Shown here: positions 4,962 to 49,260 of the stretch, piece by piece
Numbering within the stretch: the first letter of the stretch is position 1
Layout: each line of letters begins with the position of its first letter
Source of the DNA: a virus
Taxonomy: Duplodnaviria; Caudoviricetes
Reading direction: 5' to 3' (one strand)
IMG/VR virus record: IMGVR_UViG_3300000117_000028
Span: 1-54,746 of that record
Length of the DNA: 54,746 bases
Notes under the pieces: generated by a model
Databases searched by the model: none
What the model was told of the DNA's origin: nothing
The model's input: the letters and a program-made list of their open reading frames with translations, nothing else
Program-made: the position numbers and the translations under genes

Positions 4962-6572
4962 ATGGCAGGTTATATACGTCAGGATACAGCAAACAAAATT
5001 GCTAACGGTAACGTTATTGATGCAGATGACTTTGATGCTGAGTACAATGCCATTGAGGCAGGGTTTAACGCATCTACTGGTCACGCTCATGATGGTACTG
5101 CAGGCGAGGGTGCTCCTATCACTAAGGTAGGCCCAGCGCAAGACCTTATTGTTTCAGGTACAGCCCTTACGCCTAAGACTACTAACACTCTGGACTTAGG
5201 TACAGCCTCTGTACAATATAAGAATGCTTGGTTTGATGGTACTGTAGACACAGATGCCTTGACTGTATCAGAGAATGCTACAGTAGGTGGTACTCTTGGT
5301 GTTACAGGTATTATAACAGCTACAGGCGGTGTTACTGGTAACGTCACGGGTAATGTAACAGGTACAGTATCTGACGTATCTAACCATGACACAGATGCCA
5401 TCAGTGAAGGATCAACTAACCAGTACTTTACTACTGCTCGTGCTAGATCTTCTCTGTCAGCTACAGGTAATCTCAGCTACAACTCAGATACAGGTGTTAT
5501 TAGTTTTACACAGGGTGATACAGACACTGTAGCAGAAGGCACGACTAACCTATACTACACAGATGCACGTGCTACTGCAGCTGCTAAGGCTGCTATATCT
5601 GTAACTGACTCTGGTGGTGACGGTAGCCTGACCTACTCTGCTGGTGCTATTACATACACTGGCCCTAGTGCAGCTGAAACACGTGCTCACTTTAGTGGTG
5701 GTACAGGCGTAAGCATTACAGATGGTGTTGTAGCTATAGGTCAGGCTGTAGGTACTACATCTGATGTTACGTTTAACGACACTATAGTTAATGGCAACCT
5801 AACAGTAAACGGGACTACTACCACCGTAAACACTGAGACACTCAACCTTGCAGATAACCAGATTGTTCTCAACTCTAATGAGACAGGCACACCCACACAG
5901 AATGGTGGCATTGAGATTGAGCGTGGTACAGCCGCTAACAAAACACTTGTATGGAATGAGGCAGACGATAAGTGGACTGTAGGCAGTGAGACATTTGTAG
6001 CTGGTACATTTGAGGGTAATCTTACAGGTAATGCCAGTACAGCCACTACACTACAAACAGCCCGTATTATTACCCTTACGGGTGACGTGTCAGGTTCTGT
6101 GTCTTTTAATGGTGGTTCTGACGTTAGCATCACGGCTACCGTAGCAGATGACAGTCACAACCATGTTATCAGCAATGTTGATGGACTACAAACAGCCTTA
6201 AATGGTAAAGAAGCTGTTAATGTAGAAATACTTAAAGCAGATACAGACGATAATCTTACTGCAGGATACACAGCTACAGCAGATGATGATGGAACTAAGT
6301 CAAGTGGTACGTATACTCCCGCCCCTGCAGGCGGTAACTTAAAGCGTATTATTAATGGTGGTGCTTTTACATTAGCTGCACCTACAGCAGCAGGTGATTA
6401 TACTTTAGTTATTCAAATGACAAACAATGCATCTGCAGGTATAATAACATTAAGTGGTTTTACTAGAACCATTGATGAAGGGTATCTAACTACGACAGAT
6501 GGACACGACTTCTTTTTATTCATTACAAAAATTAATGGCTTTACTTCTTTGACCATACAGGCACTGCAATAA
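4962..6572 (+). CDS. Tail fibre protein
   Basis: G/T-rich; GHAHDG, repeated EGxTNxYxTxARA, GNLTVNGTTTTVNT and DDSHNH fibre motifs. Confidence 0.75.
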   Translation: MAGYIRQDTANKIANGNVIDADDFDAEYNAIEAGFNASTGHAHDGTAGEGAPITKVGPAQDLIVSGTALTPKTTNTLDLGTASVQYKNAWFDGTVDTDALTVSENATVGGTLGVTGIITATGGVTGNVTGNVTGTVSDVSNHDTDAISEGSTNQYFTTARARSSLSATGNLSYNSDTGVISFTQGDTDTVAEGTTNLYYTDARATAAAKAAISVTDSGGDGSLTYSAGAITYTGPSAAETRAHFSGGTGVSITDGVVAIGQAVGTTSDVTFNDTIVNGNLTVNGTTTTVNTETLNLADNQIVLNSNETGTPTQNGGIEIERGTAANKTLVWNEADDKWTVGSETFVAGTFEGNLTGNASTATTLQTARIITLTGDVSGSVSFNGGSDVSITATVADDSHNHVISNVDGLQTALNGKEAVNVEILKADTDDNLTAGYTATADDDGTKSSGTYTPAPAGGNLKRIINGGAFTLAAPTAAGDYTLVIQMTNNASAGIITLSGFTRTIDEGYLTTTDGHDFFLFITKINGFTSLTIQALQ

Positions 6573-27731: not shown

Positions 27732-28525
27732 TATACTTCTCCAAGTGTTGTTAGATTTTCTATGTCGGTAGGGTTTCGGTATTTCAGGTCATCTGTTAGT
27801 CGGAGTACCTTCACATCGTGAACATACCCTCGTAATTCTTTTGCGAATTGCAGTGTCTTTGGTAGGGCGTCAGGGTCTAGTGCAATTATAACCGTTGAGA
27901 ATTGTGAGAGATACTGCTTATGTACCTCAGAAAGTGAGGTGCCCAACACTGCTACCCCGACATACACTCCACCTTCTGAGCATCCAGATACATTAGTCTC
28001 ACCCACAATGGCAGCACTAACACAATCCTCAACGACTACTCCCGTTGTACCATAGCCACATGCATAGGGCAAGGGATTTTTACCATACCTTTTCCATTTA
28101 GGTATCTTTTTTCCTAGTGCTCTACCTGTCGCATCCACCATGATGTTGTTGTGCACCACAGGAAATACGACACGGTGTTCACGAACATCATACAACAAAC
28201 CGAGGTCACGAGCATCCAGTTCCCATGTGTCACAGAAGTCTCGCACAGCATCATAGTCTTTCACAAGCCACTCAGGTTTATGAAAGGATACTGCCTCAGT
28301 CTCTTCTGCTACAGAGCCTAGAGATTTACGAATGTCATCACTGGTAAGTGCGGTACGAGTACCACCAGACACACTACACCCTGCTTTGTAACAGTTCCAC
28401 ATAAGCTGACCCATGTTATTAGTTGCTGTAAATGTTTTAACTCCCCCACATACGGGACAGTTAGTACGTTTACTTTCACCATTCACTAAGTCCATATCAC
28501 TTATATGTTCTTGTATACTATTCAT
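27731..28525 (-). CDS. DNA primase (Zn finger + Toprim)
   Basis: CPVC...CYKAGC Zn finger; VVVED, LGT and ALDPD Toprim motifs; adjacent to the helicase gene. Confidence 0.85.
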   Translation of the reverse strand: MNSIQEHISDMDLVNGESKRTNCPVCGGVKTFTATNNMGQLMWNCYKAGCSVSGGTRTALTSDDIRKSLGSVAEETEAVSFHKPEWLVKDYDAVRDFCDTWELDARDLGLLYDVREHRVVFPVVHNNIMVDATGRALGKKIPKWKRYGKNPLPYACGYGTTGVVVEDCVSAAIVGETNVSGCSEGGVYVGVAVLGTSLSEVHKQYLSQFSTVIIALDPDALPKTLQFAKELRGYVHDVKVLRLTDDLKYRNPTDIENLTTLGEV

Positions 28526-29645
28526 GTATATCACTTTCAATGTTATTCGCTACACTCAATTGTACATGTACGTTTCTTTGTGTCAAGGCATTATTTGCAC
28601 TTTCGTATGTATGCTTCATGTATGGTTTCACAGATGCAACATGTGTGTGACCTGTTACTGCCATGATTTGTGGTAGTGGAACGCCCCTGTCTACCATCTG
28701 TGTCACACCAGTTCTGCGTAAGTCCATCAGCCTTAGCTCTTCATTTAACTTTGCTAACCTCATGATGCGGCGTCCAACCTTGGACAGTCTTTCCATTGCA
28801 TACGGTTTAAACCTACCATCACGTGGCTGTGGATGTGGTGCCACCCATTCTTGAAAACCAAAGTCTGCTTTCTGCTCAAGCAACATAGCATTTAGATTGT
28901 CACTGATAGGTAGGAACACCTCTGCCCTACGCTTGCTCTGCTCTAATCGTAGCTGCTGTTTCTTTAGGTCAACATTCTCCCAGCGTAGCATACGCATGTC
29001 ACCTAATCGTTGGCACCATTCGTATGCCATCTGTACAATGAGACCAATGTTACGGTACTCAAAGTCGCTGTAAGCTACATCAAGAAACTTGACAACATCA
29101 CGATGCTCCCACACATTCTTGCGCTGCTGGGTTGCCTTACGTTTGATCTTTGCGAAAGGGTTTTGCTCTGCATGTTCCATTTGTATGGCGTAGTTATATA
29201 CCCTACTAGCACAGGTTGCCGCATGGTTAGCGAAGCTAATGCCACGCTTCACCCAATCCTCATATGCACGTTTTGCAATCTTAGGTGTGACATCTTTATA
29301 CTTGCGACACCCAATTGTCTGGTGAACAACGGTCAAGAAATACCTGTAGTCTACCTTAGTTGAGTCACGTAACATACTGAAATCGTTTGACAAGTAGTAG
29401 AAGTTAATGAGGTCAGTGACCTTGCTGCTAGGCTTTAGTTCTACAACTTGAGCTTGCTTGTCACGATATGCATCAATGTCTTTGTTGTACTCACGGGCAA
29501 TCCTTCTCGCAACCTTTATATCTCCACTAAGTTCCTCACGTTCTACTACTCCTGCATTCACCAGTGGCTGTGGTGGATTGAAACGGAATGAGATGTCACC
29601 AGAAGGTGACACTCGTTTCTGTACATATCGTGGTAGTTTAGGCAT
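28518..29645 (-). CDS. int: Tyrosine recombinase / integrase
   Basis: QRLGD, QSK, DLRRT, TGH and Y (VKPY) catalytic arrangement. Confidence 0.88.
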   Translation of the reverse strand: MPKLPRYVQKRVSPSGDISFRFNPPQPLVNAGVVEREELSGDIKVARRIAREYNKDIDAYRDKQAQVVELKPSSKVTDLINFYYLSNDFSMLRDSTKVDYRYFLTVVHQTIGCRKYKDVTPKIAKRAYEDWVKRGISFANHAATCASRVYNYAIQMEHAEQNPFAKIKRKATQQRKNVWEHRDVVKFLDVAYSDFEYRNIGLIVQMAYEWCQRLGDMRMLRWENVDLKKQQLRLEQSKRRAEVFLPISDNLNAMLLEQKADFGFQEWVAPHPQPRDGRFKPYAMERLSKVGRRIMRLAKLNEELRLMDLRRTGVTQMVDRGVPLPQIMAVTGHTHVASVKPYMKHTYESANNALTQRNVHVQLSVANNIESDIHE

Positions 29646-30670: not shown

Positions 30671-31063
30671 TTACTTATAAAATATGTGTGAACCAAATGA
30701 TACAGTCGGAGTAAGTGACTTAGCCCAGTACGGTTTCACATATTTTGCATGGTAGTGTGTCGCCCCCTTAGTTATATCAGGTATGTACCCCATCATAACG
30801 TCATTAGCAACCAACACAGACCTAGCCCAAGCCACCGTGTCTGTTGGTGTGTCGGGTTTACCATCACAGAACCATGAAAACTGACAGTTTGACTTGCCTT
30901 TGACATACCCCTGCTTAACTACAGAGCACACATCATTAGGCCATCTGTCACTGGCGACCCTATTTAGGGTGACATTTGCTACAGCAACCTGCCCCCTCAT
31001 TTCCTCACTACGTGATTCGTGGTATATGTTTAATGCCATACACATTAACGCTGCACTAATCAT
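30671..31063 (-). CDS. SleB-like cell wall hydrolase (Hydrolase_2)
   Basis: CMALNIYHESR...GQxAVAxVxLNRV...CxVVxQ...QFSW...GATHYHA..V.P.W...HIFY. Confidence 0.9.
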   Translation of the reverse strand: MISAALMCMALNIYHESRSEEMRGQVAVANVTLNRVASDRWPNDVCSVVKQGYVKGKSNCQFSWFCDGKPDTPTDTVAWARSVLVANDVMMGYIPDITKGATHYHAKYVKPYWAKSLTPTVSFGSHIFYK

Positions 31064-35271: not shown

Positions 35272-35300
35272 TTGACATGCTGTGTTTTTTGTGTAAAACT
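35272..35300 (+). promoter_or_regulatory. Rightward sigma70-type promoter
   Basis: TTGACA (35272-35277) - 16 nt - TAAAACT. Confidence 0.6.
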
Positions 35301-35991: not shown

Positions 35992-36591
35992 ATGGGTATT
36001 GCAGGTAGGTTAGCTAAACGTGTAGCTAAGAATAAATTAAAAGACTTAGAAGTAGATGATCTAGTAGCACAGCAAAAAGCTAAACTTAAAAAAGCTAGAG
36101 CAAAAAATGCAGAGCCAAAAGACTCTGGTGACATTAGTGAAGTACTGATGCCAGAAGATCGTCCTTCTACTGATGCGGTAAAACAAACTAGTAAAGAACG
36201 ATTGATTAATGCTACAGGTGCTATATCAGCTTTGCTTACTAAAGCTGGACCTAAGCCTTTATCTATGGATAAGTATCGTTCTTTGCCTACGGCAGCACGT
36301 AATGCTTTTGCACGTCAGGCTAAGAAAGACTTTGACAATAAAGTTATTACGAAGCAACAATATGAAACTATTATTAAACGTATTGAGTCTGCAGAAGTAG
36401 ACAAGAATGTTCGTTCTATGGAACAAGGCATTGCTAATAAAAAAGCTAAACCTGTTACGATAGACAAGAGTATGGGCATAGATGAAAAAGACATGCCACG
36501 TAAACCAACTAAATTAAGTAAGGGTGGTATGCCTACAGGCAAGCCACGTGCAGGACATATGGACTATCGTAAAAAAGGATTATTTAAATAA
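35992..36591 (+). CDS. Lys-rich hypothetical late protein
   Basis: AAGGA SD; N-terminus duplicated in the next gene; C-terminal SKGG...DYRKKGLF. Confidence 0.65.
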   Translation: MGIAGRLAKRVAKNKLKDLEVDDLVAQQKAKLKKARAKNAEPKDSGDISEVLMPEDRPSTDAVKQTSKERLINATGAISALLTKAGPKPLSMDKYRSLPTAARNAFARQAKKDFDNKVITKQQYETIIKRIESAEVDKNVRSMEQGIANKKAKPVTIDKSMGIDEKDMPRKPTKLSKGGMPTGKPRAGHMDYRKKGLFK

Positions 36592-37022
36592 TGGGTATCG
36601 CAGGTAAACTAGCTAAACGTGTAGCTAAAGCAGCAACTAAACAAAACCCCCGTCAAGCACAGAGTGAAATGGGGACTAAGGGACAACGTGTGTATGCCCG
36701 TGGTCAGATTAAAGGTGGGGCAGCAGGTGCAGGTGCAGCGGGATTAACTGCGGCAGTTGTAGGTAAGATGTCGCTAGATGAAATGCGTCAACGTTTAAAG
36801 ACTGCAAAGGATGAAAAAGATCGTGCACTTCTTCGTGAGGCAATTACAAAGGCTGTAGCTGAAGCAAAGGACTACGTAGAAACTAAACCTACAACGTCGC
36901 CTCGTCCAAGATCACGCCCAATGGGAATGGCTAAGGGTGGCTATGCTAACTGTGGTGCCTCTATGCAAGCTACACAGAGTTCAACAAAAATGGCATACGG
37001 TGGTATGGCTAAAAAGAAGTAG
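36591..37022 (+). CDS. Basic hypothetical late protein
   Basis: TAATG-coupled; MGIAGKLAKRVAK N-terminus; MAKGG and MAYGG motifs. Confidence 0.65.
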   Translation: MGIAGKLAKRVAKAATKQNPRQAQSEMGTKGQRVYARGQIKGGAAGAGAAGLTAAVVGKMSLDEMRQRLKTAKDEKDRALLREAITKAVAEAKDYVETKPTTSPRPRSRPMGMAKGGYANCGASMQATQSSTKMAYGGMAKKK

Positions 37023-37026
37023 TGCT

Positions 37027-37215
37027 GTGTGGTTAGGTTTATTGTTAGCGTGTCTTAATCCTTCTGCAACTTCTTGTACCATTATGGCGAAAACAGATCA
37101 ACTGTTTTATAGTGAACAAGAGTGTGTGGCTGAAGGAACTGAGGTTGCTAACAATTTACGTAATAAAAATGTATACGCTATTCCAATGTGTGTAAAAATA
37201 GGAGATAACGCATGA
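37027..37215 (+). CDS. Small secreted or membrane Cys-rich protein
   Basis: GTG start; hydrophobic N-terminus MWLGLLLAC; 4 Cys. Confidence 0.5.
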   Translation: MWLGLLLACLNPSATSCTIMAKTDQLFYSEQECVAEGTEVANNLRNKNVYAIPMCVKIGDNA

Positions 37216-37298
37216 CTACTTGTAAAGGTTGTGAAACACGAGGTAACTGCTTGGCTGCAGATAAATGTTTAAAAAGAAGCTTGGGTAGTAAAGAATAA
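37212..37298 (+). CDS. 28-aa Cys-rich mini-protein (not in ORF track)
   Basis: AGGAG SD, ATGA overlap; MTTCKGCETRGNCLAADKCLKRSLGSKE. Confidence 0.5.
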   Translation: MTTCKGCETRGNCLAADKCLKRSLGSKE

Positions 37299-37301
37299 GT
37301 A

Positions 37302-37667
37302 ATGGTTGCATCTCGTGATTATAACACTGCAACAAAAGGAATAATAGTTACCGCCACAACAGGCGGTGCTACTTCTAATGTTGTGTATACGTGTCCAGCT
37401 AACTTTGATGCAGAGATAGACTTCTTGCATATTACTAATGGTGACTCGGCTAATCACAATATAAGTATACAGTGGTATCACGCAGATACAGATACGTATC
37501 ATCATATTCTAAATGATAAAGCTATCACAGGTAAAGATGTGTATAATATTATAACGTCAGACAGGATATACTTACACGCAAATGATAAGATAACAGCCTT
37601 TAATGGTTCAAGTGGTAACTTGGAGGTGTTCCTATCCGCTAAAGAGTTTTTTAACCCTAACAGATAG
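37302..37667 (+). CDS. Hypothetical beta-rich protein
   Basis: VYTCPAN...LHITN motif; in-operon ORF. Confidence 0.6.
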   Translation: MVASRDYNTATKGIIVTATTGGATSNVVYTCPANFDAEIDFLHITNGDSANHNISIQWYHADTDTYHHILNDKAITGKDVYNIITSDRIYLHANDKITAFNGSSGNLEVFLSAKEFFNPNR

Positions 37668-37679
37668 CACATAGCGGGG

Positions 37680-37710
37680 TTGCATTATTGTCTGTAGTAT
37701 GGTATAACTA
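37680..37710 (+). promoter_or_regulatory. Promoter for the DUF1127 gene
   Basis: TTGCAT (37680-37685) - 17 nt - TATAAC (37703-37708), preceded by TG-n extended -10. Confidence 0.6.
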
Positions 37711-37717
37711 AATATGG

Positions 37718-37774
37718 TATAACTCCTGTGTATACAAACGTGTATACATGATGTTCATGGAACAAGGAGTTATA
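37718..37774 (+). promoter_or_regulatory. Structured 5' UTR (three-way junction) sequestering the Shine-Dalgarno
   Basis: TATAACTCCT (37718-27) pairs perfectly with AGGAGTTATA (37765-74), enclosing hairpins TGTATACA-AACG-TGTATACA and TGTTC-ATG-GAACA. Confidence 0.7.
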
Positions 37775-37777
37775 AAC

Positions 37778-37927
37778 ATGAAATGGTTAATTAATTGGTT
37801 TGAAGCAGTAGCAGTAGCACAACAACGCCGTGCAGATTATTGGTTGCTTCGTAATATGTCAGATAAAGAATTAAAAGATATAGGAATTTCTCGTGGCGAA
37901 ATCTCCCAAAAAGTCTTCAACGGTTAA
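37778..37927 (+). CDS. DUF1127 (YjiS-like) small protein, 49 aa (not in ORF track)
   Basis: MKWLINWFEAVAVAQQRRADYWLLRNMSDKELKDIGISRGEISQKVFNG contains the LxxxSDxxLxDIGxxRxxI signature; AGGAG SD. Confidence 0.88.
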   Translation: MKWLINWFEAVAVAQQRRADYWLLRNMSDKELKDIGISRGEISQKVFNG

Positions 37928-38081
37928 TGCGGCTGGTAATTATACTAAGCCTGCTATGCGTAAGCGTCTTGTCGCCTCCGTTAAAGCTGGTGGCAAAGGT
38001 GGAAAGCCCGGACAGTGGAGCGCACGTAAGGCACAAATGGTTGCAAAGCAATATAAAGCAAAAGGTGGGGGCTATAAGTAA
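37893..38081 (+). CDS. DUF5872-like protein, N-terminal half
   Basis: YTKPxMRxRL...KAGxKGGKPGQWSARKAQ...YK..GGGY. Confidence 0.7.
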   Translation: MAKSPKKSSTVNAAGNYTKPAMRKRLVASVKAGGKGGKPGQWSARKAQMVAKQYKAKGGGYK

Positions 38082-38338
38082 TGGCCCTCGCCAAATCTCA
38101 AAAGAGTCTTAACAAATGGACAAAGCAGGATTGGAGAACTAAAAGTGGTAAACCTTCTACGCAAGGCCCAAAAGCTACTGGTGAACGCTATCTCCCGGCT
38201 AAAGCTATTAAAGCTATGTCTAGTGGAGAGTATGCAGCTAGTACTGCTAAAAAAAGAAAAGACACTCAAGCTGGTAAACAATTTTCTAAACAACCTAAAG
38301 CTGCAGCTGAAAAAGCTAAACGTTTTAGGCGCACGTAA
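38081..38338 (+). CDS. DUF5872-like protein, C-terminal half
   Basis: SQKSLxKWTxQDWRTK...RYLP.KA...GKQF; TAATG-coupled. Confidence 0.7.
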   Translation: MALAKSQKSLNKWTKQDWRTKSGKPSTQGPKATGERYLPAKAIKAMSSGEYAASTAKKRKDTQAGKQFSKQPKAAAEKAKRFRRT

Positions 38339-38371
38339 ATAAAAACAAGTAAGACTATTGGAGAAATAAAT

Positions 38372-38545
38372 TTGTTGTGTGTGTTGGCCTTTGTTTCATT
38401 CGGTCACGCATGGACTGTAAGTGGTAACATTTTGTTTCAATATTGTTACTACGACTGTGGGTTGCCTAAAAACGGTTTGTTTTACGATAGGGTATATAGA
38501 GTAAGCTACAACTATGTATGCCCTATAGAGGTTAAGTTCAAATGA
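38372..38545 (+). CDS. Small Cys/Tyr-rich protein (57 aa, not in ORF track)
   Basis: TTG start after GGAG; MLCVLAFVSFGHAW...CYYDCG...CP; ATGA overlap with the next gene. Confidence 0.5.
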   Translation: MLCVLAFVSFGHAWTVSGNILFQYCYYDCGLPKNGLFYDRVYRVSYNYVCPIEVKFK

Positions 38546-39018
38546 TTGATCCCTTCACAGCCTTTGCTGCAGCACAGACAGCTGTATCTGCCATTAAGAA
38601 GGGTATTCAGTTAGGCAAGGACATTGGAGGTATCTCTAATGACTTAGCTAAGTTTGCTGGTGCTGTCTCTGATCTTAGCTTTGCACACAAGCAGTCAGAG
38701 AATCCACCTTGGTATGCTGTACTATTCGGTGGTAGTGGCCCTAGTGCGATGGACATCTTCGCTAAGAAGAAACAAGCGGAGGCTCTACGTGCTGAGATTA
38801 AACAGTATATTCAGTTTGCTTACGGGCAGAGTGCTTGGGAAGAGCTTCTCCACATTGAAGCGAAGGTACGTAAAGACCGTCAGAAAACTATGTATCGCAA
38901 GGCTGAGATTAAACAGGCTATTGTGGAGTGGAGCCTTGGTATATTGGTTGTTCTATCAGGAATTGGTGTTCTTGGCGTGGGGATTTATTTCCTCGGCAAA
39001 AAACAAGGAAAGTGGTAA
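38542..39018 (+). CDS. Membrane-anchored hypothetical protein
   Basis: MIDP N-terminus; C-terminal transmembrane helix. Confidence 0.65.
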   Translation: MIDPFTAFAAAQTAVSAIKKGIQLGKDIGGISNDLAKFAGAVSDLSFAHKQSENPPWYAVLFGGSGPSAMDIFAKKKQAEALRAEIKQYIQFAYGQSAWEELLHIEAKVRKDRQKTMYRKAEIKQAIVEWSLGILVVLSGIGVLGVGIYFLGKKQGKW

Positions 39019-39617: not shown

Positions 39618-40070
39618 ATGACATTTAAACTATCTAACCGTAGCCTCGCTAAAATGGAAGGCGTAGATGAAAGACTAGTCGCAGTAGTCAAACGTGCTAT
39701 TGAGCTTACTAAGGTAGACTTCGGAGTTATTTATGGTCTACGCACAGTAGAAGAGCAAGAGAAGCTTGTAGCTGCAGGTAAGTCCCAGACTATGAAGTCC
39801 AAACACCTAGAGGGACGTGCAGTAGACCTCATGGCTTATGTGGATGGTAAGGGCGTATGGGAACTCAATGTTTACGATGATCTCTGTGACGCAATGAAAG
39901 AGGCAGCACGAGAACTTGGTGTAGCAATCAAGTGGGGTGCTGCTTGGTCTGAAGGTGATATCCGTACATACGAAGGTACAGCTGAAGACGCAATGATGGC
40001 ATATGTAGACTTACGCCGCAGTCAGGGGCGCAGACCGTTTATTGATGGCCCTCATTTTGAATTAATGTAA
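39618..40070 (+). CDS. Endolysin, M15-family L-Ala-D-Glu peptidase
   Basis: GxRTxEEQ, SKHxxGxAVD and DGPHFEL zinc-peptidase motifs. Confidence 0.9.
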   Translation: MTFKLSNRSLAKMEGVDERLVAVVKRAIELTKVDFGVIYGLRTVEEQEKLVAAGKSQTMKSKHLEGRAVDLMAYVDGKGVWELNVYDDLCDAMKEAARELGVAIKWGAAWSEGDIRTYEGTAEDAMMAYVDLRRSQGRRPFIDGPHFELM

Positions 40071-47921: not shown

Positions 47922-47951
47922 TTGACATATAGATTATTTATGATATAACTA
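47922..47951 (+). promoter_or_regulatory. Major capsid promoter
   Basis: TTGACA (47922-47927) - 16 nt - TATAACTA. Confidence 0.7.
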
Positions 47952-48189
47952 TATGTGAATAAGTGTAATAGTATGGCCCCGCTAGGTATTAACTACGGTT
48001 ACCCATACTATAAACACTAACATAGCAAACAATATAACTTTTCGGATTACCTAAAAACGTATGGCCCATTTAAACTAAAGTATGACTGATCATCATAGTT
48101 TAGATATTAAGTGCACCCATAAACGATTAGCCTCTATAATAAGTAATACATAGTTTGCATCTGTAAAACTAATGCTAAGGAGAATTACG

Positions 48190-49260
48190 ATGGCATTCGG
48201 TTCCGCAGGGGGTTATACCAACCTCCCCAATGGTAACTTTTCCCCAGTTATCTATTCCAAACAGGTGCAACTTGCATTCCGCAAAGCATCTATTACTGAA
48301 GCAATCACTAACAATGATTATTTCGGAGAAATCGCCAACATGGGCGATACAGTAAAAATCATCAAAGAACCCGAAATTTCCGTGTCGGCATATCTACGTG
48401 GTACAACAATCGCACCACAAGATTTGGCTGATGCTGATTTCTCGTTAGTTGTTGATAAAGCTAACTATTTTGCTTTCAAAGTAGACGATATTGAAGAGGC
48501 TCATAGCCACATCAATTTCCAAACTCTTGCATCTGATCGTGCCGCCTTCCGTTTGGCTGACCAACATGACCAAGAAGTTCTTGGCTATTTGGCTGGTTAC
48601 AAACAGGCTGCATTACACGCAAATGCAGGCGTAGTAAACAATGTAGTCAATGGTACTAAAGCTAATGCAGCTGCAGGTACTGACGAACTCCTAGCAGCTA
48701 ACAAGCTGAATAAAGTTTCGTTTGGCAACATTACTACTGCTTCAGCTGCGGATCACTCTATCCCAGTTGCTGCACGTCTTCCCGGTGCAACGGCACTTCC
48801 AACTGCTTATGTCTCACCTGCAATGCTTGTTGCACGTATGGCACGTCTGTTGGATGCGCAAAACATACCTACACAGGGACGGTGGATCGTAATTGACCCG
48901 GTAATGATGGAAGTACTTCGTGACGAAGATTCACGTCTTTTGAACGCAGACTTCGGTGGTGCTGGTCTACAGAATGGTCTGGTGTTAAACAACTTCCACG
49001 GTTTCCGTGTACATGTTTCAAACAACCTTCCTTCCGTAGGAACTGGTCCATCGACAACAGGTACAGCTAACCAGAACACTAACTATGGTGTGATTGTTGC
49101 TGGACACGATTCATCTGTTGCAACTGCAGAGCAGATCAACAAGACGGAAACATACCGTGACCCAGACAGCTTTGCTGACATTGTTCGTGGTATGCATCTC
49201 TATGGGCGCAAAATCTTGCGTCCTGAAGGTCTTGTTACAGCTAAGTATAACTTGGCTTAA
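48190..49260 (+). CDS. Major capsid protein
   Basis: AAGGAG SD; FSPVIYSK, GDTVKI, YFAFKVDDIE, DIVRGMHLYGRKILRPE; followed by a terminator. Confidence 0.9.
   Translation: MAFGSAGGYTNLPNGNFSPVIYSKQVQLAFRKASITEAITNNDYFGEIANMGDTVKIIKEPEISVSAYLRGTTIAPQDLADADFSLVVDKANYFAFKVDDIEEAHSHINFQTLASDRAAFRLADQHDQEVLGYLAGYKQAALHANAGVVNNVVNGTKANAAAGTDELLAANKLNKVSFGNITTASAADHSIPVAARLPGATALPTAYVSPAMLVARMARLLDAQNIPTQGRWIVIDPVMMEVLRDEDSRLLNADFGGAGLQNGLVLNNFHGFRVHVSNNLPSVGTGPSTTGTANQNTNYGVIVAGHDSSVATAEQINKTETYRDPDSFADIVRGMHLYGRKILRPEGLVTAKYNLA

What the first reader, a model, noticed from the sequence alone, without database searches (positions are those of the whole stretch)
37680..37927. Phage DUF1127 gene with its own promoter and an SD-sequestering three-way-junction leader
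Seen: a 49-aa ORF below the ORF-track cutoff carries the DUF1127/YjiS signature (LRNMSDKELKDIGISRGEI). It has a dedicated promoter (TTGCAT-17-TATAAC; predicted start ~37715). Nearly the whole leader folds: a perfect 10-bp closing stem TATAACTCCT/AGGAGTTATA buries the AGGAG SD and encloses an 8-bp hairpin (TGTATACA-AACG-TGTATACA) and a 5-bp hairpin (TGTTC-ATG-GAACA). Known: alphaproteobacterial DUF1127 proteins (e.g. CcaF1 of Rhodobacter sphaeroides) bind RNA and affect sRNA/mRNA turnover, and Agrobacterium DUF1127 proteins affect phosphate uptake. Inference: a self-contained, translationally gated cassette (thermometer, protein-responsive or ligand-responsive switch) that lets the phage or prophage tune host RNA or phosphate physiology.
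Basis: partly seen in the sequence, partly recalled or inferred. Interest (0 to 1): 0.82.

Follow-up and report, generated by a model that had tools for sequence, protein, structure and literature searches.

The report
Masked-start DUF1127 gene in roseophage
A tiny phage gene of the DUF1127 family sits behind a conserved promoter and an RNA hairpin that hides its ribosome-binding site, a unit shared by many marine Roseobacter phages; the hairpin is real, but what opens it is still unknown.

Summary
The 49-aa ORF 37778-37927 is a DUF1127 protein (Pfam E 5.3e-8, above cut-off). The leader folds exactly as described (-22.2 kcal/mol, z -3.99). The window is a near-complete HMO-2011-type Roseobacter podophage.

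The unit recurs in at least 172 places in viral contigs and in CRP roseophages (88 unique upstream regions). The helix between the anti-SD and the SD is kept through many compensatory variants: 27 distinct arm pairs, own arms 9.1 bp against foreign arms 6.7 bp, 0 of 10,000 permutations.

The "three-way junction" is not conserved. The inner part carries 0-2 hairpins, and hairpin 2 occurs in only 3-4 of 20 close relatives. The computed SD occlusion does not change from 10 to 45 C. A ligand switch or a thermometer is therefore unlikely.

The promoter belongs to a class enriched in this phage (TTGACA-N16-18-TAWAAC: 6 found, 0.11 expected). The unit is not self-contained. It has no terminator, the ORF overlaps the next gene, and it heads the lysis and packaging block.

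What the second -10-like hexamer does is unresolved (inner promoter as in T4 gene e, sigma-dependent pause site, or RNA motif). No transcription start data could be obtained.

The parts
37670..37679 (+). conserved upstream motif CATARCGGGG, 3 nt after the stop of ORF 37302-37667
   Evidence: Consensus over 71 anchored unique cassettes. It is kept even in types that lack the TTGCA -35. Its function was not tested.
37680..37685 (+). -35 element TTGCAT of promoter P1
   Evidence: TTGCA lies within 260 nt upstream in 66 of 80 loci found through the protein. The 16-mer around it occurs once in the window, allowing up to 3 mismatches.
37700..37708 (+). TGn + -10 hexamer TATAAC of P1, 17-nt spacer
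   Evidence: First hexamer is TATAAC in 54 of 71 and TG is present in 59 of 71. TTGACA-N16-18-TAWAAC is enriched in the window: 6 found, 0.11 expected, 0 of 100 shuffles.
37714..37716 (+). predicted P1 transcription start (inferred, not measured)
   Evidence: Lies 6-8 nt after the -10, by the standard spacing rule. No TSS data: RNA-library contigs cannot show starts.
37715..37723 (+). second TGGTATAAC (-10-like hexamer 37718-37723); role unresolved (inner promoter, sigma-dependent pause element or RNA motif)
   Evidence: TAWAAC at this offset in 71 of 71 anchored cassettes, TGn in 46 of 71. In types L193-L201 a perfect TGGTATAAT sits in the loop between anti-SD and SD.
37718..37727 (+). 5' arm of the closing helix (anti-SD, TATAACTCCT)
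37728..37749 (+). inner hairpin 1 (8 Watson-Crick pairs + 1 G-U, loop AACG)
   Evidence: Predicted in 20 of 20 unique leaders of the window's subfamily with differing stem sequences. Absent or different in other subfamilies.
37752..37764 (+). inner hairpin 2 (5 bp), not conserved
   Evidence: Predicted in full in 3 of 20 subfamily leaders (window, L091, L134) and as 3 bp in one more (L095).
37765..37774 (+). 3' arm of the closing helix; contains SD AGGAG 37765-37769, 8 nt before the ATG
   Evidence: Positions 0-7 from the SD are paired in 84-98% of 44 leaders. Positions -1 and 4-8 covary.
37778..37927 (+). DUF1127 small-protein gene (49 aa + stop)
   Evidence: Pfam, genome-wide family search, homologues.
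37893..38081 (+). next ORF (62 aa, phrog_17747), overlaps the DUF1127 ORF by 35 nt
   Evidence: Follows the DUF1127 gene in many related loci.

Best explanation
This is a conserved expression unit of HMO-2011-type Roseobacter phages. A host-sigma70-type promoter, P1 (TTGCAT-17-TGgTATAAC, start about 37715), is followed within a few nucleotides by an anti-SD segment. That segment pairs with the Shine-Dalgarno region of a phage DUF1127 small-protein gene.

On every RNA that contains the 5' arm, the ribosome-binding site is locked in a stable helix. Such RNAs are P1 transcripts and read-through from the upstream + strand genes. DUF1127 translation from them is therefore held very low, while the same RNA runs on into the lysis and packaging genes. 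The helix lies at or near the 5' end, so it probably also protects that end.

Shown: the protein family, the fold, family-wide covariation of the helix, the promoter class, and the gene context.

Inferred: the start site, that the helix blocks translation, and how it is opened. My split for how it is opened:
- about 35%: no dedicated switch, that is, constitutive damping plus 5' protection;
- about 25-30%: transcripts that start inside the hairpin at the second TGGTATAAC, as in T4 gene e;
- about 25%: a trans-acting factor, including the DUF1127 protein itself;
- under 10%: temperature or a ligand.

By analogy with bacterial DUF1127 proteins, the protein most likely acts on host PhoR signalling or on RNA turnover. 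That was not tested here.
For: Protein: PF06568 at E 5.3e-8; 15 of 15 diverse phage homologues hit PF06568.

Fold: z -3.99, 0 of 200 shuffles as good. The SD is the most occluded of 35 SD-bearing ORFs in the window.

Recurrence: 94 of 110 viral-contig hits to the 16-mer carry the unit, as do CRP-1 and CRP-13, and all 97 have a DUF1127-like ORF. All 80 of 80 loci found through the protein also show the DUF1127 motif.

Covariation: 44 unique leaders give 27 distinct arm pairs with helices of 6-13 bp. Own arms pair over 9.08 bp and -14.65 kcal/mol, foreign arms over 6.69 bp and -9.79 kcal/mol, with 0 of 10,000 permutations reaching the observed value. Positions -1 and +4 to +8 relative to the SD switch among AU, UA, GC and CG, with 0-1 of 1000 shuffles as paired. 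In MFE folds at least 3 of 4 SD bases pair with the segment just after the second hexamer in 44 of 49, and at least 2 of 4 in 49 of 49.

Promoter: TTGACA-N16-18-TAWAAC occurs 6 times against 0.11 expected. -35, TG and -10 are conserved at fixed spacing.

Context: no + strand terminator nearby; downstream lie endolysin, terS, terL and portal; no phage RNA polymerase was found among 67 ORFs.
Against: No transcription start, translation or stability measurement exists. The four RNA libraries that were laid are assemblies and cannot show starts.

The generic sigma-70 scan does not call P1.

Column-based covariation on MAFFT and CM alignments is weak: 58.9% of cells paired, covariation score 0.191 against 0.160. 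Indels shift the register of the 5' arm, so my stronger counts rest on a register chosen per sequence, which leans towards pairing. The permutation control was optimised in the same way.

Only 10 of 26 representative 5' arms have no foreign 3' arm that pairs over a longer stretch.

Pairing of the bases upstream of the second hexamer is not significant family-wide (4.57 against 4.32 bp; 789 of 10,000). The helix therefore does not by itself prove a start at 37715.

Within the window's own subfamily the closing stem is invariant, so it gives no covariation there.

A strong SD kept together with a strong anti-SD suggests a conditional switch rather than simple damping.
Confidence: 0.62

Rival explanations
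1. Two-start switch of the T4 gene e / soc / 49 / I-TevI kind. RNAs from P1 or from upstream genes carry the 5' arm and are translationally silent. RNA polymerase starting at the second TGGTATAAC (start about 37730) makes an RNA without the anti-SD, and DUF1127 is translated from it.
For: A TAWAAC hexamer lies at this offset in 71 of 71 anchored cassettes. The anti-SD always lies within 8 nt after it, that is, upstream of its expected start. In two other subfamilies (L193-198, L199-201) the TTGCA -35 is lost and a perfect extended -10, TGGTATAAT, sits in the loop between an 8-bp anti-SD and the SD. Computed SD accessibility rises from a mean of 0.047 to 0.658 when the RNA starts 7 nt after the second hexamer, and is higher in 44 of 44 leaders. 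No terminator separates the upstream genes, and two consensus promoters lie upstream at 35272 and 35490. The T4 precedent was read in passages of PMC3014915.
Against: The second hexamer has no -35, and TGn is present in only 46 of 71, so in about a third of cassettes it would be a poor promoter by the usual rules. It is unclear why a dedicated P1 would sit 15 bp upstream only to make silent RNA. There are no TSS data.
Confidence: 0.27
2. The repeated -10-like hexamer is a sigma-dependent promoter-proximal pause element of a late promoter, as at lambdoid PR'. The conserved spacer or the upstream motif would be the docking site of an unknown antiterminator or activator. The hairpin would be a separate translational feature.
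For: An identical TGGTATAACT lies 15 bp after the P1 -10, in the initially transcribed region. The promoter spacer (..TTGT.TGTAGT..) and the CATARCGGGG motif are unusually conserved. The promoter is unique in the genome and heads the lysis, packaging and structural genes. No phage RNA polymerase was found. The concept of a Q-binding element plus a sigma-dependent pause element was taken from abstracts in the search listing.
Against: No Q-like or other transcription factor was recognised among 67 ORFs. No terminator was found downstream in 36500-39000. Pausing cannot be tested here.
Confidence: 0.18
3. Protein-responsive switch: the DUF1127 protein or another RNA-binding factor, helicase, sRNA or RNase binds the leader and opens or closes it (autoregulation).
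For: A strong SD and a strong anti-SD are both kept, which suggests conditional opening. CcaF1, a Rhodobacter DUF1127 protein, is described as RNA-binding in the title and abstract listing of PMC8034643. The hexamer is conserved even where it is unpaired.
Against: No conserved single-stranded motif stands out apart from the hexamer. Loops and inner hairpins vary freely. Salmonella YjiS showed no RNA association (passages of PMC11707872). Agrobacterium DUF1127 proteins act through PhoR (abstract of PMC12501420).
Confidence: 0.15
4. RNA thermometer: the helix melts with rising temperature and frees the SD.
For: The SD lies in an AU-rich helix.
Against: The helices are perfect over 6-13 bp. The computed P(SD unpaired) stays at 0.04-0.05 (median about 0) from 10 to 45 C across 44 leaders. 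No match to ROSE or any other Rfam family. The hosts are cold-water roseobacters (host ecology is recalled, not from a call).
Confidence: 0.04
5. Ligand-binding three-way-junction riboswitch.
For: The window's own leader can be drawn as a three-way junction.
Against: The junction is not conserved: 0-2 inner hairpins across subfamilies, hairpin 2 in 3-4 of 20 close relatives, and no conserved junction or loop bases. No Rfam match.
Confidence: 0.02

Closest known systems
Masked translation-initiation regions of phage T4 genes e, soc, 49 and I-TevI (review PMC3014915, passages read)
   Same: The SD and/or the AUG lie in a helix on the longer transcripts. A -10-type promoter element lies in the DNA that encodes the 5' strand, or in some relatives the loop. 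The gene sits just before or among lysis functions.
   Different: The hexamer here is the host-type -10 (TAWAAC), not the T4 late TATAAATA. A second, complete promoter lies 15 bp upstream. Neither start site has been mapped. The gene regulated is a DUF1127 small protein.
Bacterial small DUF1127 proteins: Agrobacterium SDPs and E. coli YjiS acting on PhoR (PMC12501420, abstract and section 31 read); Rhodobacter CcaF1, RNA-binding (PMC8034643, listing only)
   Same: Pfam family, size (about 46-60 aa), arginine-rich stretch followed by the ..L.DIGI.R..I motif.
   Different: Phage-encoded. The closest relatives are all from metagenomic or viral contigs. Only distant relatives (63% identity or less, over part of the protein) were found in 14 loci of species-representative bacterial genomes. 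Partner and activity are untested.
Sinorhizobium meliloti duf1127-1 leader: uORF-dependent, Rho-linked transcription attenuation (PMC12218461, abstract and discussion read)
   Same: A DUF1127 gene controlled post-transcriptionally by its 5' leader, with pairing that involves a ribosome-binding site.
   Different: No conserved uORF here. The leader is only about 64 nt. The pairing masks the DUF1127 gene's own SD. No attenuation element is evident.
Lambdoid late promoter PR' with sigma-dependent pause element and Q loading (abstracts in the listing)
   Same: A unique promoter ahead of the lysis and morphogenesis genes, with a -10-like repeat in the initially transcribed region and a conserved spacer.
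   Different: No Q homologue and no downstream terminator were found. Pausing was not tested.

Membership tests
Pfam DUF1127 (PF06568) | HMM score above the curated gathering cut-off | tested here: met
   32.9 bits against 23.3, E 5.3e-8. 15 of 15 diverse phage homologues match. 31.9 bits in the genome-wide search.
Pfam DUF1127 (PF06568) | Small protein with an arginine-rich stretch and a conserved DIG[IL] motif (the motif is described in PMC11707872, passages) | tested here: met
   49 aa with QQRRAD...DIGISRGEI. D, G and R of the motif are invariant in 15 aligned homologues.
Pfam DUF1127 (PF06568) | Binding to PhoR or to RNA | not testable with these tools
   Known only from the literature for bacterial members.
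cis-acting SD-sequestering leader hairpin | Anti-SD segment complementary to the gene's own SD | tested here: met
   10 bp in the window. At least 2 of 4 SD bases are paired to the 5' segment in 49 of 49, and at least 3 of 4 in 44 of 49.
cis-acting SD-sequestering leader hairpin | Pairing maintained by compensatory change | tested here: met
   27 distinct arm pairs. Own against foreign arms: 0 of 10,000 permutations. Positions -1 and +4 to +8 covary. The column-based count on MAFFT/CM alignments is weak because of register shifts.
cis-acting SD-sequestering leader hairpin | Reduces translation | not testable with these tools
   Only computed accessibility is available.
RNA thermometer (ROSE, fourU) | Match to a known thermometer family | tested here: not met
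   No Rfam hit on the leader at E up to 10, and none in 15 related loci.
RNA thermometer (ROSE, fourU) | Helix that opens within the physiological temperature range | tested here: not met
   Computed P(SD unpaired) is 0.041 at 10 C and 0.049 at 45 C, mean of 44 leaders. In silico only.
Riboswitch / ligand aptamer | Conserved junction architecture and conserved unpaired nucleotides | tested here: not met
   The inner part varies from none to two hairpins. Hairpin 2 occurs in 3-4 of 20 close relatives.
T4 gene e-type masked TIR with inner promoter | Promoter inside the hairpin that gives a shorter, translatable RNA | tested here: inconclusive
   -10-like hexamer in 71 of 71, TGn in 46 of 71, a perfect TGGTATAAT in the loop in two subfamilies. 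Promoter activity and start site are unknown.
T4 gene e-type masked TIR with inner promoter | Longer transcripts from upstream that run through the hairpin | tested here: inconclusive
   No terminator upstream. Consensus promoters at 35272 and 35490. RNA-library contigs bridge an upstream gene into the ORF in relatives, but they may derive from DNA.
Lambdoid Q-dependent late promoter | -10-like pause element in the initially transcribed region | tested here: inconclusive
   The sequence element is present. Pausing was not tested.
Lambdoid Q-dependent late promoter | Q-family antiterminator gene and a downstream terminator | tested here: not met
   No such Pfam family among 67 ORFs. No + strand terminator in 36500-39000. 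Many ORFs remain unassigned.
S. meliloti duf1127-1 uORF/Rho attenuator | Translated uORF with its own RBS in the leader | tested here: not met
   The leader is about 64 nt. The short ATG-started frames at its 5' end are not conserved, as seen on inspection of the 49 leaders.

The most novel reading that the evidence does not exclude
The unit is a promoter-choice switch. Read-through and P1 RNAs are silent for DUF1127, and only RNAs begun at the inner -10 translate it. The switch times a phage-made DUF1127 protein that locks the host PhoR/PhoB phosphate response, or remodels RNA decay, in RCA roseobacters. That would make it a small-protein host-takeover module of one of the ocean's most abundant phage groups.
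Probability: 0.12. Interest if true: 0.75.

Novelty: new member of a known kind. Interest (0 to 1): 0.52.

Why it matters
DUF1127 small proteins have recently been tied to PhoR-dependent control of phosphate uptake (abstract of PMC12501420) and to RNA turnover (listing of PMC8034643).

Phage-encoded DUF1127 is not discussed in the papers I could search. 'DUF1127' together with 'phage' returned 10 papers, none about a phage gene judging by title or abstract. The three RCA/HMO-2011 phage papers in the listing hold the word 0 times. One GenBank record, CRP-603, does carry the DUF1127 annotation.

The gene is unannotated in CRP-13. In CRP-1 it is called as a 92-aa ORF.

A conserved, covarying leader in front of it gives marine virologists a defined target that can be mutated. 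With it they can ask whether and when roseophages interfere with host phosphate signalling or RNA decay. The phage-wide promoter motif found on the way is also useful for annotating transcription units in this phage group.

Tried and rejected
(1) Column-based covariation. The MAFFT alignment A1, the covariance model R1 and its alignment A2 did not bring the 5' arms into register: 58.9% of cells paired, slide controls 36-51%. I used register-anchored counts and arm-swap permutations instead.

(2) RNAalifold on the window's subfamily found only the invariant closing stem, with 0 compensatory pairs. MAFFT misaligned hairpin 1, so I checked it by single-sequence folds.

(3) The search for related loci with the protein alignment failed because no stretch was conserved enough. 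I repeated it with single proteins.

(4) An outer helix between the bases upstream of the second hexamer and the start codon is not significant family-wide.

(5) Sequencing runs. All 23 listed runs are assemblies with small shares of the words (0.23 or less). The four that were laid give no starts or ends (table 6: none). Parts of the stretch without cover say nothing. Contigs that bridge the promoter into the ORF in relatives may be DNA.

(6) Bacterial genomes. Only 14 distant relatives in high-GC genomes, none with the promoter motif.

(7) PDB sequence search: nothing meaningful, best E 0.032 to ribosomal protein L19.

(9) A leaderless mini-ORF (ATG GTA TAA at 37714) was considered as an opener and dropped, because the ATG is missing in several subfamilies.

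(10) The sigma-54 reading of GGGG-TTGCA was rejected by eye: there is no GG at -24.

(11) No complex prediction with PhoR was sent, because no host PhoR sequence was in hand.

Full report
What the window is. The window is a complete or near-complete virus record of 54,746 bases (CheckV 99%). Its nearest cultured relatives are the RCA roseophages CRP-13 and CRP-1, of the HMO-2011 type. Replication genes lie on the - strand from about 15.9 to 34.5 kb: family A DNA polymerase, DnaB-like helicase, RNR, ThyX and an integrase. Structural, lysis and packaging genes lie on the + strand. No phage RNA polymerase or recognisable transcription factor was found among 67 ORFs scanned against Pfam.

The observation.
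- ORF 37778-37927 encodes 49 aa and matches Pfam DUF1127 above the curated cut-off (E 5.3e-8, 32.9 against 23.3 bits).
- TTGCAT (37680-85) is followed after 17 nt by TATAAC (37703-08), preceded by TG.
- TGGTATAACT is repeated exactly, 15 bp later.
- RNAfold of 37715-37790 returns the 10-bp closing stem (37718-27 with 37765-74, covering AGGAG) around an 8+1-bp hairpin and a 5-bp hairpin. MFE is -22.2 kcal/mol, z -3.99, and 0 of 200 shuffles fold as well.
- Among 35 ORFs of the window that have an SD-like motif, this SD is the most occluded (0.000 against a median of 0.50).
- Rfam has nothing on the leader.

The unit recurs widely. An exact scan of IMG/VR with the 16-mer at 37676-91 gave 110 loci. 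Of these, 94 show the same layout, as do CRP-1, CRP-13 and the window itself: upstream motif, TTGCA, -10, second hexamer, a variable leader, an SD and a DUF1127-like ORF. The other 16 are unrelated chance matches.

Because that set is selected on the promoter, I also collected loci through the protein. Of 127 relatives, 80 were kept. All 80 carry the DUF1127 motif and 66 have TTGCA upstream. A further 31 loci came from a divergent member. In all there are 172 sites with at least 200 nt upstream, giving 88 unique upstream regions.

Fifteen of 15 diverse members hit PF06568. In the cultured-phage collection the protein is found in 8 records, all RCA roseophages, one of them annotated as DUF1127. 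The 53 closest database proteins all come from metagenomic sources.

The helix is under selection. The 44 unique leaders carry 27 different pairs of arms, and each still forms 6-13 uninterrupted pairs (mean 9.3). I took one representative for each of 26 distinct 5' arms:
- own arms pair over 9.08 bp and -14.65 kcal/mol;
- foreign arms pair over 6.69 bp and -9.79 kcal/mol;
- none of 10,000 permutations reached the observed means;
- on the other hand, only 10 of 26 have no foreign partner that pairs over a longer stretch, because many arms share the constant CUCC/GGAG core.

With the register fixed per sequence, the SD and the four bases after it are paired in 84-98% of leaders. Positions -1 and +4 to +8 switch among AU, UA, GC and CG far more coherently than shuffled columns do (0-1 of 1000).

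The ordinary column-based route failed. MAFFT and a covariance model did not absorb the 1-6-nt indels between the hexamer and the anti-SD, and gave only 58.9% paired cells. My register-anchored counts lean towards pairing, and the arm-swap control was optimised in the same way.

What is not conserved. The inner part of the leader ranges from an unstructured 11-20-nt loop to one or two hairpins. In the window's own subfamily (20 unique leaders) the closing stem is invariant. Hairpin 1 is present in 20 of 20 with at least six different stem sequences. Hairpin 2 is predicted in 3 leaders, with a 3-bp version in one more. The three-way junction is therefore a local detail and not the functional core, and no conserved junction or loop bases exist that could form a ligand pocket. 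The computed SD accessibility of the 44 leaders is 0.041, 0.042, 0.045, 0.047 and 0.049 at 10, 20, 30, 37 and 45 C, which argues against a thermometer. This is an in silico result only.

The promoter. The generic scan misses P1 because it demands T at the last -10 position. In this phage, however, TTGACA-N16-18-TAWAAC occurs 6 times against 0.11 expected (0 of 100 shuffles). Several copies are in intergenic places, for example 35272, 35490 and 47922 before the major capsid gene. TAWAAC is thus the working -10 of this phage-host pair, and P1 is a member of the class with a weaker -35. Over 71 anchored unique cassettes the first hexamer is TATAAC in 54 and TG precedes it in 59. The spacer and the upstream CATARCGGGG motif are also conserved. 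By the usual spacing the start is 37714-37716. This is an inference.

The second hexamer. TAWAAC is present 15 (or 14) bp after the first in 71 of 71 anchored cassettes, whether or not it is part of the helix. TGn precedes it in 46 of 71. In two subfamilies without the TTGCA -35, a perfect TGGTATAAT sits in the loop between an anti-SD and the SD. Three readings fit.
- (a) An inner promoter, giving an RNA without the anti-SD. This is the arrangement documented for T4 genes e, soc, 49 and I-TevI (PMC3014915, passages). Computed SD accessibility then rises from 0.047 to 0.658.
- (b) A sigma-dependent pause element of a late promoter, as at lambdoid PR' (abstracts).
- (c) An RNA-level motif.

Pairing of the four bases upstream of the hexamer with the start-codon region is strong in some subfamilies (7 bp) but not significant overall (789 of 10,000). 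The covarying part of the helix does lie upstream of the start expected for an inner promoter, so RNAs begun at P1 or further upstream must exist and must matter.

Context. The unit is not self-contained.
- No + strand terminator is predicted between 36500 and 39000.
- The ORF overlaps the next one by 35 nt.
- Downstream follow two small conserved ORFs, membrane-protein-like ORFs, endolysin, terS, terL and portal.
- In 110 related loci the unit most often follows the homologue of ORF 37302-37667. It precedes a variable set of small genes that leads to terS, and in some it stands directly before terS.

What the protein may do. Abstracts and one discussion section state that small DUF1127 proteins of Agrobacterium and E. 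coli bind PhoR and restrain phosphate uptake (PMC12501420). Rhodobacter CcaF1 is described as RNA-binding (PMC8034643, listing). Salmonella YjiS did not associate with RNA (PMC11707872, passages). A Sinorhizobium DUF1127 gene is controlled by a quite different, uORF-dependent leader (PMC12218461). None of this was tested for the phage protein.

Verdict. The SD-masking helix is a real, selected feature of a widespread roseophage unit. The thermometer, ligand and self-contained-cassette readings are not supported. What opens the helix and what the second hexamer does remain open, and 5'-end mapping would decide both. The RNA libraries available here are assemblies and cannot show starts.

Noticed in passing
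window 47922-48190: Near-consensus promoter TTGACA-16-TGaTATAAC in the gap before the major capsid gene. It is followed by a leader of about 220 nt with a 9-bp inverted repeat (about 47970 and 48003).
   Followed up: partly
window 2986, 22123(-), 33641(-), 35272, 35490, 47922: The phage-wide promoter motif TTGACA-N16-18-TAWAAC occurs 6 times against 0.11 expected. The generic sigma-70 scan misses the class because the -10 ends in C. It is useful for mapping transcription units in HMO-2011-type roseophages.
   Followed up: partly
L001 (CRP-13) 5447-5710; L002 (CRP-1) 1513-1883: CRP-13 has the whole unit in the 247-bp 'intergenic' gap between gp61 and terS, and the DUF1127 gene is not annotated there. 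CRP-1 annotates a 92-aa ORF that runs on over the start of the next gene.
   Followed up: partly
L193-L198 and L199-L201 (viral contigs): Variant architecture: the TTGCA -35 is lost and a perfect TGGTATAAT lies in the loop between an 8-bp anti-SD (or a helix of about 13 bp) and the SD. The proteins are 61 aa, with an N-terminal extension. There are too few variants to test covariation.
   Followed up: partly
L234 (Bradyrhizobium) and L236, upstream of 1501: Bacterial DUF1127 genes whose SD also lies in a predicted hairpin (for example an 8-bp stem ending in GGAGA). SD masking may be commoner in this gene family.
   Followed up: no
window 35992-36591 and 36591-37022: Two adjacent ORFs (199 and 143 aa) share the N-terminus MGIAG(R/K)LAKRVAK and look like paralogues. 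They have no family hit.
   Followed up: no
window 28521-29645 (-), 30674-31063 (-), 39618-40070 (+): A tyrosine integrase sits in a podophage of a group usually treated as lytic. There is also a second cell-wall hydrolase (Hydrolase_2) besides the endolysin.
   Followed up: no
window 37668-37858 in RNA-library contigs of runs X1 and X4: Contigs of 1075 and 732 nt from relatives run from a different upstream gene across the promoter into the DUF1127 ORF. This is compatible with read-through RNA, but DNA carry-over cannot be excluded.
   Followed up: partly
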